Of a stretch of 64,000 nt of DNA, positions 57,001 to 60,000 are shown piece by piece. Source of the stretch: a virus; the UHGV virus genome UHGV-0180032. One strand, given 5' to 3'. Position 1 is the first letter of the stretch, and each line of letters opens with the position of its first letter. Position numbers: made by a program.

Positions 57001-60000
57001 TTAACTTAGGGTGATTGTACCTTATTTTGTATAAACCGTCTTAGAACTCGTTCTAGCGCGTTTTACGGACAAAATAAACCTACCCTCCTGCTAAGCAGGA
57101 GGGTATTTATTATTCTACCGGGTGCAACATAGTGCCGGTATCTGGAATGCTACCTTCGTGACATCTGAAGAACGTTACACCTTTACCTTCACCCGTTTTG
57201 TAGTTGACAGTAGAATACGCAAACGTTGGGGTTTTCGACAGTAACCCGTTTACACGGTAATAGCGCTCACCGGTAACAACGTTTAAGTTACCGTCCACTT
57301 TACCTAACAGGTCTTTATATAGTTGCGGAGATTCAATTTTACCTTCGTCCCATGTAGCGACCCAATTCGCCCCTGTATCCATGACTAACACCGAAAGGGG
57401 CATCAGTTTTAGGCTAGACGGTACCGGTTTAAAATCAACGAATTCTTGAGAAGCACCTGTACAGGTGTAAATGACCATATCGTGTTGGTCAACAGGTACG
57501 GTGGAAAACTGACCTTCCGCGTTCGGCTGAATAGCACAACTTGCCAACGTCATTACAAAAGCAACGACCACGAGAATGCGTTTTAGCATAAACTCACCCT
57601 TATTAAAATTAAGAAAAAATAATTTTTTCAGGTTAGCGCTTACTGCCAACCGTCATATCTATATTTTAGGAAATGTCTAAAATAACATTCTTATGCAATC
57701 CACCCCTACCACTAACGAGGTAAAAAAAGATGGCTAAAGCCTTCAAACAACAGCTCAATTCGTCTGGCTTCTCAAGACCTGATCGGTGCCAAAGCTTACG
57801 AACAAGCCGGTAGCCTCGATCTGGAAAACTCCGTCATCGTAACCAAACTGAACGAAGAAATGGTTACTAAAGGTTATGTCGATGACGCATTCGCCGAAAG
57901 CGAACTGTCCATTGAGAAATCCGAAGGCGACAGCGGTGCTAAAGTCTACACTGTCAAAGTAAGCGAAGGCCACATCAAATTCCTGGCTGGTACTATTGCC
58001 GTCTTCACTTATTCCAACCCAGCTCCTGAGAAGGTAGCACTGAGCGGTCTGGAAGGTGAACTTGATGGCTTCACTGCACCGGGTGTCGGTGGCTAATTAA
58101 ATCGGGGGGGGGTGACCTCCCCCGATATTTCTCTAACACGTATTATTAAGGACCTAGATAATGGCCGCTACTAACCAGATGATGTTGGTCGCGCTTTATA
58201 ATGCTGCTAACGCTGAGCTACCGCATCAGATTACAGATAAAGAAGTGTCCTTTGGTCTCCCTACTGCGCTGGAAGGCGAAAGTAAGAATACCAAAGTTAC
58301 CATGACTGCACTACCGGGTTCTGAGAATTTCAAAGGCGAAATCGAACTGCATTACGATCGTCTGGAACCAGGTGTTGTAGGACGGATTGAACTAACTGAC
58401 GATCTGTCTCGCTGGGTTCAAGAAAATGAACTCCGCGCTTGGTTACAATATTACATCAACAAAGTAAAACCTGACGACGCTATCGCACCAGGCGACGTTG
58501 TGTACAACACCGAAGACCAGAAAGACGAACATGAAAACGTCACTCTGCGTACCGTGACGTGCACCGTTACTGAAAAGAACCTCCGTTATAAACCGGGCGT
58601 AATGGCAACCTTCGTAATTACACCGAAGGTTGTCGATAATCGTATTGACCTGGCCACCACCAACGGTGAGTTGGACGGTTTTACTGCTTAATCGCTAAGT
58701 CAACTACTATAACAAAAAATAATAAGTTTACCTACCTCCTTTACGGAGGTAGGTATTTTTTTATTCTAATCCCATTTCCAGTGCAAGAGCACGGATCGTG
58801 TCGTAGTCACGCTGTTCAGCGTACTGACGAATTTCACGTTTCTGGGCAGACATCGCGTTGTGTAACTGTTGGTCACGCTTCACAATAGCCCCCATCAACG
58901 CTTTACATTGCTCCAGCGTAAACGGTTCTATACGTGTATTCGACGTGTCCAGCCAATAATCCGGTGCAGTTTCAGACTGGATATATTGGCCCAGCATCTG
59001 ACGAGAGGTTTCGTCAGCTTGGAAATGACGACCGTCAACTTCGATGTAGCCGTGACGCTGGTCTTCGTAACGGTGTTCAATTTCCAACATGATTTTCTGG
59101 ATATCTAAATAGATATAGCGAGACGTCGAACGCATATTCGAACGAATCTCATCCAGGTCAATCTCCAGAACGTCAGTAATGAATTCTTTTGCTTTATTCA
59201 GTGTAAACTTCGACTCGATAGGAGACATTTCGTAAGTTTGCATCTGGGCTAAAGCTTCTTCATCACTCATCCCTTCAATCAACTTGTAGTGCAGTAAAGC
59301 ACAGAACCCCGTACGTCCACGGACTTCGTTACCTACACGTTCCATGTAGTTACCGTGGCGGTCAATTGGGAGATCGTGAGCGAAATAACGCGCGCGAATC
59401 TCTTCCTTCGTTAAGCTTTTGTTAGAAGCAGACATTCTTCTTCTCCAACCATACCTAATTCTTGCAGCAAGCCAAAATCAATCAACTGGAAGGTTTCAGA
59501 GAGATCGTTTGACCACACCACGTTTGCAATGTCGCGTTCTTCATCCGTTAACTGCGGTAACACACTTTCGTTGAACGTCTGATGCTCTACGTAATACGCA
59601 TCGTAGATAGACGTGGAACGCAAACAACGGATGGGTAGACGCGGGAAAGACACCGCTAACGCAGCAATAGACGCGCTGCTCGGATTCTCCGCTGAATAAC
59701 GAAGCAGTTCGATTTTGTGGCGTGGGTAGTCCAGTACACGTTGTTCGAAACCCGGATTACGTTTTTCGATTTCCACAACGGACTCATGGCCTGTTTCTGT
59801 GCAGTAAACAGGAATCATCACGTTTAACCCGTACTTAATCAGCAGGGGTTTAATCTCATCTGTAAAGTCTTCACCAGGGATAATGGCGTGGACGTTATAG
59901 AGTTTGTGTTTACGCAGAAAACGCTCAACCAGGTGGAGTTTACGCTTCGTAAAATTGTGGATCAGAATTGATTTCATTATTTGCCTCAGTAGGTTGTGCA

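What the first reader, a model, noticed from the sequence alone, without database searches (positions are those of the whole stretch)
58101..58126. Third G-tract hairpin (ATCG9...C5GAT) between two genes sharing a GELDGFTA C-terminus
Perfect 8-bp stem ATCGGGGG/CCCCCGAT containing a G9 homopolymer, placed between 57860-58096 and 58161-58691. Its core is near-identical to the element at 40165 (CCCCCGAT arm conserved).
Basis: seen in the sequence. Interest (0 to 1): 0.5.

Follow-up and report, generated by a model that had tools for sequence, protein, structure and literature searches.

The report
Poly-G terminator-like hairpin in jumbo phage
The G-run hairpin is real and recurs, but it is most likely an ordinary transcription-terminator-type RNA hairpin between two late genes of an uncultured jumbo phage, with one arm that happens to be a slippage-prone run of G.

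Summary
At 58101-58126 the sequence ATCG9TGACCTC5GAT starts 4 nt after a stop codon and ends 34 nt before the next ATG. As + strand RNA it folds into an 11-bp stem (one G·U) with a GUGA loop, -22.4 kcal/mol, followed by AUUUCUCU. The window is a new SPN3US/Asesino-like jumbo phage.

There are three runs of G9 or longer (40168, 46307, 58104) against about 0.07 expected. All are + strand and intergenic.

In 11 further related assemblies the e3 hairpin and its tail are kept, while the G run varies from G7 to G11. Predicted stability barely changes, because extra Gs move into the loop.

At the same gene junctions, Erwinia phages Caitlin and Asesino carry canonical hairpin-plus-T-run terminators. 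Relatives carry interrupted versions of the sister elements (GGGGGAGGT/ACCTCCCCC), so the structure is conserved, not the homopolymer. The window also has other G-arm-first hairpins with strong T runs.

Best reading: a leaky intrinsic-terminator or 3'-end-stabilising hairpin. A role as a phase-variable switch is not excluded, but nothing tested here supports it. The interest is low.

The parts
58101..58126 (+). e3: G-run hairpin ATCG9 TGACCT C5GAT. The RNA stem is AUCGGGGGGGG/CCUCCCCCGAU (11 bp, one G·U) with a GUGA loop.
58104..58112 (+). G9 homopolymer, the 5' arm plus the first loop base. It is G7 to G11 in related genomes.
58127..58138 (+). U-rich tail ATTTCTCTAACA. ATTTCT(C/T)TAAC is kept wherever it could be read in the relatives that carry the hairpin.
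57730..58096 (+). Upstream unit: remnant of a phrog_4862 paralogue. It has a 170-nt internal deletion relative to the intact gene in L003, and its ATG at 57730 is out of frame with the C-terminal part that ends ...GELDGFTAPGVGG.
58161..58691 (+). Downstream gene, 176 aa, matching DUF7941 and phrog_4862 (PHROG relatives are annotated as virion structural proteins). It ends ...GELDGFTA.
58729..58755 (.). Canonical bidirectional terminator hairpin that closes the unit against the convergent - strand gene 58761-59435.
40165..40195 (+). e1: sister hairpin ATTG10 TAAGCTA CTC6GAT. It starts 17 nt after the stop of the 944-aa tail protein gene and ends 29 nt before the ATG of the 1541-aa tail fibre gene.
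46303..46350 (+). e2: AATCG10 followed by a composite hairpin. The outer stem pairs the G run with UCUCCCC, and the inner stem is AAAUGUU.../...AACAUUU. It ends 21 nt before the GTG of DUF7941 gene 46372 and has no U tail.

Best explanation
e3, and very probably e1, is an intercistronic RNA hairpin of the intrinsic-terminator type in the late structural-gene region of an SPN3US/Asesino-like jumbo phage.

When the + strand is transcribed, the G run pairs with CCUCCCCC to form a very stable 11-bp stem, which is followed by a short U-rich tail. I infer that this stops part of the transcription, or protects the 3' end of the upstream message, and that the rest reads through into the next gene. It would therefore be a leaky terminator or attenuator.

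The homopolymer is a by-product. It is a GGGGGAGG-type arm in which A-U has become G·U. That change is harmless in RNA. Once the arm is a pure G run, it drifts in length by replication slippage. The drift is tolerated because surplus Gs simply enlarge the loop.

Shown here: the structure, the strand asymmetry, the conservation, the length polymorphism and the positional equivalence to canonical terminators.

Inferred: termination or stabilisation itself.
For: - The terminator scan ranks e3 top in 50-64 kb: 11 pairs, 8 G-C, loop of 4, tail ATTTCTCT.
- Folding gives -22.4 to -23.4 kcal/mol with z = -3.8. The - strand RNA is about 5 kcal/mol weaker because G·U becomes C·A, so the structure is specific to the + strand RNA.
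- e3 starts 4 nt after the upstream stop codon.
- In Erwinia phage Caitlin the same junction, gp164|gp165 (gp164 ends ...GELDGFTVA, gp165 ...ELDGFS), carries a canonical terminator AAGGAGCttcgGCTCCTT followed by T7.
- In Asesino the site syntenic to e1 carries CCCACTCttcgGAGTGGG followed by a T run.
- Paralogues of the downstream-type gene at 36151 and 53719 are preceded by ordinary terminators.
- The window has other G-arm-first hairpins with strong T runs at 9477, 53069 and 55065.
- Relatives keep the hairpin while its sequence changes. e1 is GGGGGAGGT gctt ACCTCCCCC in L037/L173, GGGGAGGT/ACCTCCCC in L038 and G10/CCTCCCC in L169. e2 is GGAGGGGGT/ACCCCCT in L038.
- Across 12 assemblies G7 to G11 gives -18.0 to -22.6 kcal/mol, and the tail is conserved.
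- In L006 and L162 the upstream paralogue and e3 are replaced together.
- Terminators mapped experimentally in phiKZ share a similar CCYCCCC/GGGRRGG hairpin (PMC10914365).
Against: - The U tails are short: AUUUCUCU for e3 and CUUUAGCU for e1. The phage's clear terminators have T6-T9 runs.
- e2 has no U tail, lies 85 nt from the upstream stop, and travels with the downstream gene. Homology between the window and L037 restarts exactly at its 5' edge, 46303.
- There are no transcript 3'-end data for this phage.
- The termination rules of the phage's own RNA polymerases are not known.
- e3 itself shows no covariation. Its arms are essentially invariant.
Confidence: 0.6

Rival explanations
1. The hairpin is a 5'-leader element of the downstream gene. 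It would sit at or near the 5' end of that gene's mRNA and act on its stability or translation, not on the upstream gene.
For: - All three elements end 21-34 nt before a start codon.
- e2 stays joined to the downstream DUF7941 gene when the upstream adhesin gene and spacer are swapped.
- e2 and e3 share AATCG9-10TGA, and both precede DUF7941-family genes.
Against: - No promoter motif was found upstream. The phage's early-promoter-like motif AGATAKATATTAYC occurs at four other sites, and no conserved phiKZ-type TATG is present.
- e3 is lost together with the upstream paralogue in L006 and L162, while the downstream gene stays 93% identical.
- Other paralogues are preceded by ordinary terminators.
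Confidence: 0.15
2. The G run is a contingency (phase-variable) locus. Slippage would change terminator or leader strength and so vary expression of the downstream fibre-like genes within a phage population.
For: - The run is G7 to G11 across 12 assemblies, with nearly invariant flanks.
- All three runs lie in front of a tail-fibre gene or DUF7941 genes, whose PHROG relatives are annotated as virion structural proteins.
- A relative has a G8 run directly after the ATG of a gp38-like adhesin gene.
- Homopolymer contingency loci have been reported in phages (PMC12633550).
Against: - Predicted stability is flat from G9 to G11 (-22.3 to -22.6 kcal/mol).
- The run is neither in a coding sequence nor in a recognisable promoter spacer.
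- Relatives have non-slippery interrupted arms at e1 and e2.
- Any run of 9 or more bases varies by slippage or sequencing error without having a function.
- Within-sample heterogeneity could not be examined.
Confidence: 0.1
3. The hairpin is an RNA processing site, for example for RNase III, or a DNA-level signal such as a recombination linker at module borders, a cruciform or a G-quadruplex.
For: - e2 forms a 17-bp interrupted helix.
- One mosaic breakpoint coincides with the 5' edge of e2.
Against: - The 11-bp stem of e3 is short for RNase III (my own knowledge).
- Homology runs straight through e1.
- G·T mismatches weaken the DNA and - strand form.
- A single G run cannot make an intramolecular quadruplex.
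Confidence: 0.05

Closest known systems
Intrinsic (factor-independent) terminators of Chimalliviridae jumbo phages, including the conserved phiKZ terminator motif BCCYCCCCHWWDGGGRRGGBYTTAT mapped by ONT-cappable-seq (PMC10914365)
   Same: - It is a stable hairpin built from CCUCCCC and GGGGAGG-type arms.
- It sits just after a stop codon in the same orientation as the genes.
- It is followed by a T-rich stretch.
- It recurs in the genome with shared arm sequences.
   Different: - The arm order is inverted, with the G arm first.
- One arm is a pure G9-G11 run that pairs through a G·U.
- The U tract is shorter, and no TTAT box is present.
- Termination was not measured here.
Canonical terminators at the syntenic junctions in Erwinia phages Caitlin (gp164|gp165) and Asesino (after gp141)
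   Same: They occupy the same position between the same gene families, on the same strand, and are stem-loops of similar size.
   Different: Their sequences are unrelated, with mixed-sequence stems and long T runs, and they have no homopolymer.
Hypermutable homopolymer tracts (contingency loci) in phages and bacteria. Examples are the T2/T4 contingency loci (PMC12633550), and, from my own knowledge, the poly-G tracts in Campylobacter phage fibre genes and the poly-G/C promoter spacers of Neisseria.
   Same: It is a long G run next to virion or fibre genes, and its length is polymorphic between genomes.
   Different: It is not in a coding sequence or a promoter spacer. No on/off logic is evident, and the length change is absorbed by the loop.

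Membership tests
Intrinsic (rho-independent) terminator | A stable G+C-rich stem-loop in the transcript | tested here: met
   The stem is 11 bp with 8 G-C pairs, folds at -22.4 kcal/mol, and has z = -3.8.
Intrinsic (rho-independent) terminator | A U-rich tract directly 3' of the stem | tested here: inconclusive
   The e3 tail AUUUCUCU has 5 U in 8 and passes the scan threshold. e1 has CUUUAGCU and e2 has none. All are weaker than the phage's clear terminators.
Intrinsic (rho-independent) terminator | Located downstream of a stop codon, co-oriented with the gene | tested here: met
   e3 starts 4 nt after the TAA and e1 starts 17 nt after its stop codon. The syntenic sites in Caitlin and Asesino hold canonical terminators.
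Intrinsic (rho-independent) terminator | Transcript 3' ends map to the U tract | not testable with these tools
   No transcriptome exists for this uncultured phage.
phiKZ conserved terminator motif (PMC10914365) | A 5' CCYCCCC arm, a 3' GGGRRGG arm, then TTAT | tested here: not met
   The arm composition is similar, but the order is reversed (G arm first) and the tail is GATATTTCT.
Contingency locus / phase-variable simple repeat | A long homopolymer with length polymorphism | tested here: met
   The run is G7 to G11 across 12 assemblies. Sequencing error may contribute.
Contingency locus / phase-variable simple repeat | The repeat is placed so that length changes switch expression (in a reading frame or a promoter spacer) | tested here: not met
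   The run is intergenic and not in a recognisable promoter. The predicted hairpin energy is nearly constant over G9-G11.
Contingency locus / phase-variable simple repeat | Length heterogeneity within one population, with a phenotype | not testable with these tools
   No read-level data are available.
Rfam RNA families | A match to a curated covariance model | tested here: not met
   There were no hits at gathering score in the window. Only E of about 9 noise appeared around e3.

The most novel reading that the evidence does not exclude
Slippage of the G run from G7 to G11 tunes how much transcription or translation passes from the hairpin into the fibre-like genes downstream. That would give a jumbo phage an RNA-structure-based contingency switch for virion or host-range proteins at three sites.
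Probability: 0.08. Interest if true: 0.6.

Novelty: new member of a known kind. Interest (0 to 1): 0.2.

Why it matters
The practical value is mainly for annotation.
- The hairpin marks a transcription-unit boundary in the tail-fibre region of an uncultured jumbo phage.
- The ORF upstream of it is a decayed paralogue, not a gene.
- The case shows how a terminator arm can turn into a slippery homopolymer without losing its RNA structure, because G·U pairing tolerates the change.

Only if tract length were shown to change read-through would this become a new kind of phage bet-hedging device.

Tried and rejected
- **Close DNA relatives among deposited phages:** megablast and blastn of the locus found nothing. 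Relatives had to be reached through proteins and IMG/VR or metagenome loci.
- **Rfam and tRNA scans:** they found nothing.
- **Sigma-70 promoter reading of the G run as a spacer:** the spacings are poor for e2 (about 17-20 nt with weak hexamers) and absent for e3. These phages also encode their own RNA polymerases (a putative RNA polymerase beta subunit among the hits). I dropped this reading.
- **phiKZ-type late TATG motif:** it is not conserved near the elements.
- **IMG/VR scan for G9+N3-12CCCCCGAT:** it gave only 29 hits, mostly unrelated G/C hairpins, so this is not a widespread mobile element.
- **PDB sequence search of the two DUF7941 proteins:** there were no relatives.
- **GELDGF motif:** it occurs in only these two ORFs of the window.
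- **G-quadruplex and DNA cruciform:** I rejected both on sequence logic and on the strand asymmetry.
- **First simulation script:** it timed out and was rerun.

Full report
**What is in the sequence**

Positions 58101-58126 read ATCGGGGGGGGGTGACCTCCCCCGAT. The G9 run is 58104-58112 and the C5 run is 58119-58123.

The element starts 4 nt after a TAA stop codon (58094-58096) and ends 34 nt before the ATG of ORF 58161-58691. Two sister elements exist on the same strand:
- e1 at 40165-40195 reads ATTG10 TAAGCTACT C6GAT.
- e2 at 46303-46350 reads AATCG10TGA followed by a nested hairpin and then CTCCCC.

These are the only G runs of 7 or longer in the 64 kb. Runs of 9 or more G or C are expected 0.07 times per window in first-order Markov simulations, and 0 of 100 simulations reached 3. 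All three runs lie in the 6.4% of the window that is non-coding, which has a probability of about 2.6e-4.

**Where the window comes from**

No deposited phage matches the locus at the DNA level. The first 25 kb matches Erwinia phage Asesino and SPN3US-like Salmonella, Erwinia, Cronobacter and Proteus jumbo phages at about 77% identity. The matched genes include the major capsid protein, a helicase and a putative RNA polymerase beta subunit. The 944-aa tail protein is 76% identical to its Asesino counterpart. The window is therefore an undescribed member of this jumbo-phage group.

An IMG/VR contig of 151.6 kb (3300045988_095954) is identical to the window over the locus.

The intergenic regions of the window show two ordinary signal classes:
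- G+C-rich hairpins followed by T6-T9 runs.
- The AT-rich motif AGATAKATATTAYC at 4910, 25829, 47032 and 50335, found 4 times against 0.05 expected. This fits the description of jumbo-phage early promoters as a highly conserved AT-rich element of about 10 nt (PMC7598289).

**The flanking genes**

The downstream gene (58161-58691, 176 aa) matches DUF7941 and phrog_4862. It matches more weakly two PHROG families annotated as virion structural protein. Its relatives are unnamed proteins of the same phage group.

The upstream ORF 57860-58096 is not an intact gene. A good ribosome-binding site and an ATG lie at 57730, but that ATG is one base out of frame with the C-terminal part. In relative L003 the homologue is a 190-aa ORF, MQSTPTTYEVKKMAKAFKQQLIEAV...GELDGFTAPGVGG, which is 178 aa counted from the MAKAF start. 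By comparison with that 178-aa form, the window and L002 copies have lost 170 nt, which is not a multiple of three.

The 'two genes sharing GELDGFTA' are thus one gene and one decayed paralogue. No other ORF of the window has the motif.

**Structure**

As + strand RNA, e3 folds into AUCGGGGGGGG/CCUCCCCCGAU. This is an 11-bp stem with one G·U pair and a GUGA tetraloop, at -22.4 to -23.4 kcal/mol (z = -3.8; 1 of 200 shuffles folds as well). The opposite-strand RNA is about 5 kcal/mol weaker, because the G·U pair becomes a C·A mismatch.

e1 also relies on U·G and G·U pairs, and e2 on G·U pairs. This asymmetry points to a function in the + strand transcript. It argues against a function in duplex DNA or in antisense RNA.

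The terminator scan ranks e3 first in 50-64 kb, with 11 pairs, 8 of them G-C, a loop of 4 and the tail ATTTCTCT.

**Population data**

Loci around the downstream gene were recovered from IMG/VR (5 loci) and from metagenome assemblies (9 loci). Eleven independent assemblies besides the window carry e3. Their G-run lengths, counting window/L002 once, are:

| G-run length | Number of assemblies |
|---|---|
| G7 | 1 |
| G8 | 1 |
| G9 | 2 (window/L002 and L159) |
| G10 | 5 |
| G11 | 2 |

The C run is 4-6. The 3' arm CCTCCCCCGAT and the tail ATTTCT(C/T)TAAC are almost invariant.

Predicted stability is -18.0 to -22.6 kcal/mol overall, and -22.3 to -22.6 kcal/mol for G9-G11. Surplus Gs only enlarge the loop. 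Part of the length spread may be sequencing error.

In two assemblies (L006, L162) e3 is absent, and the upstream paralogue is replaced together with it.

**The homopolymer is not what is conserved**

At e1:
- Relatives L037/L173 have GGGGGAGGT-gctt-ACCTCCCCC.
- L038 has GGGGAGGT/ACCTCCCC. Both are perfect hairpins.
- L169 and the window have G10.

At e2, L038 has GGAGGGGGT...ACCCCCT with the same two-stem architecture.

The differences are A-U versus G·U and changes in the loops. These are what an RNA hairpin tolerates. A GGGGGAGG arm and a pure G run are one transition apart, and once the arm is pure, the run can slip.

**Positional equivalence**

In Erwinia phage Caitlin the neighbourhood is syntenic. 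A - strand gene is followed by two + strand paralogues, one ending ...GELDGFTVA and the other ...ELDGFS. Then come a bidirectional terminator and a - strand tail-assembly-like gene. Between the two paralogues lies a textbook terminator, AAGGAGCttcgGCTCCTT followed by T7.

In Asesino the site after the orthologous tail protein gene, syntenic to e1, holds CCCACTCttcgGAGTGGG followed by a T run.

Within the window:
- Paralogues of the e2-downstream gene at 36151 and 53719 are preceded by ordinary terminators.
- Other G-arm-first hairpins carry strong T runs: 9477 TGGGGGTGgaaaCATCCCCA followed by T7, 55065 and 53069.

In phiKZ, 61 terminators mapped by ONT-cappable-seq and predicted intrinsic share a CCYCCCC/GGGRRGG hairpin (PMC10914365). 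That is the same arm chemistry in the opposite order.

**Interpretation**

The best-supported reading is that e3 and e1 are intrinsic-terminator-type hairpins between co-oriented late genes. They are probably leaky, given their short U tails, and they may also stabilise the upstream 3' end.

The structure, strand specificity, conservation, polymorphism and synteny are shown here. Termination itself is inferred.

e2 fits less well. It has no U tail and lies 85 nt from the upstream stop. Homology between the window and L037 resumes exactly at its 5' edge. It may be a leader or processing structure of the downstream gene. I keep that as the main rival for the family as a whole.

**The phase-variation idea**

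In favour:
- The tract length is polymorphic.
- All three runs precede a tail-fibre gene or DUF7941 genes.
- A relative has a G8 run directly after the ATG of a gp38-like adhesin gene.

Against:
- The run is neither in a reading frame nor in a recognisable promoter spacer.
- Predicted stability is flat across the common lengths.
- Interrupted, non-slippery versions exist at the sister sites.

It cannot be excluded without read-level and expression data. I give it about 0.1.

**Searches that argue against a mobile or widespread element**

The pattern G9+N3-12CCCCCGAT occurs in only 29 stretches of the 2.9 million IMG/VR contigs. Apart from this phage clade, these are unrelated G/C hairpins. Rfam has no match.

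**Verdict**

The feature is real, non-random and recurrent. It is best explained as a lineage-specific flavour of an ordinary terminator-like hairpin whose G arm has become a hypermutable homopolymer. It is a new member of a known kind, and its interest is low.

Noticed in passing
window 57730-58096: The ORF upstream of the hairpin is a pseudogene-like remnant. Its ATG and ribosome-binding site at 57730 are one base out of frame with the C-terminal two thirds. The intact homologue in L003 is 178 aa from the same MAKAF start, which implies a 170-nt internal deletion. The IMG/VR contig L002 carries the same deletion.
   Followed up: yes
window 4910-4923, 25829-25842, 47032-47045, 50335-50348 (+ strand); also L001 about 11870: The conserved AT-rich motif AGATAKATATTAYC lies just after terminators and before small 5' hairpins. 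It occurs 4 times against 0.05 expected. It is probably the early (virion RNA polymerase) promoter of this phage group.
   Followed up: partly
L037 9396-9902 (IMG/VR contig 3300045988_078609): A gp38-like adhesin gene begins AAGGAGGgtagATG-GGGGGGGG-TAGCG. The G8 run sits directly after the start codon, inside the reading frame, so it is a candidate frameshift-type contingency tract in a host-range gene.
   Followed up: no
L051, L057, L076, L079, L084, L092, L100, L103, L113, L114, L121, L140 and others (IMG/VR, 25-50 kb contigs): An unrelated phage group carries TTTGTCaaggtAATC-G9/10/11-TATAAA..GGAGG..ATGcttaag. The poly-G run sits in the spacer of a sigma-70-like promoter and varies in length between contigs. 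This looks like a classical phase-variable promoter.
   Followed up: no
L038 3850-3990 versus window 36720-40147: Relative contig 3300045988_113438 lacks the 944-aa tail protein gene at this position. It keeps the last ~56 nt of that gene plus the e1 hairpin. This is either a deletion or relocation, or an assembly artefact.
   Followed up: no
window 46303 versus L037 9933: Homology between the window and a relative breaks inside the tail-fibre and adhesin genes and resumes exactly at the first base of e2 (AATC). The adhesin cassette upstream has been exchanged.
   Followed up: partly
window 57110-57649 (- strand), flanked by hairpin 57081-57105: A single opposite-strand gene (phrog_9559, with a putative signal or lipoprotein-like N-terminus) is embedded among + strand structural genes and has its own bidirectional terminator. 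The arrangement is moron-like and is conserved in Caitlin (gp163).
   Followed up: no
window 59940-61274 (- strand): This 444-aa ORF has a CxxxCxxC radical-SAM-type motif (CNLDCEYC) and a Cys-rich C-terminal part. It lies next to the tail-assembly-like gene.
   Followed up: no
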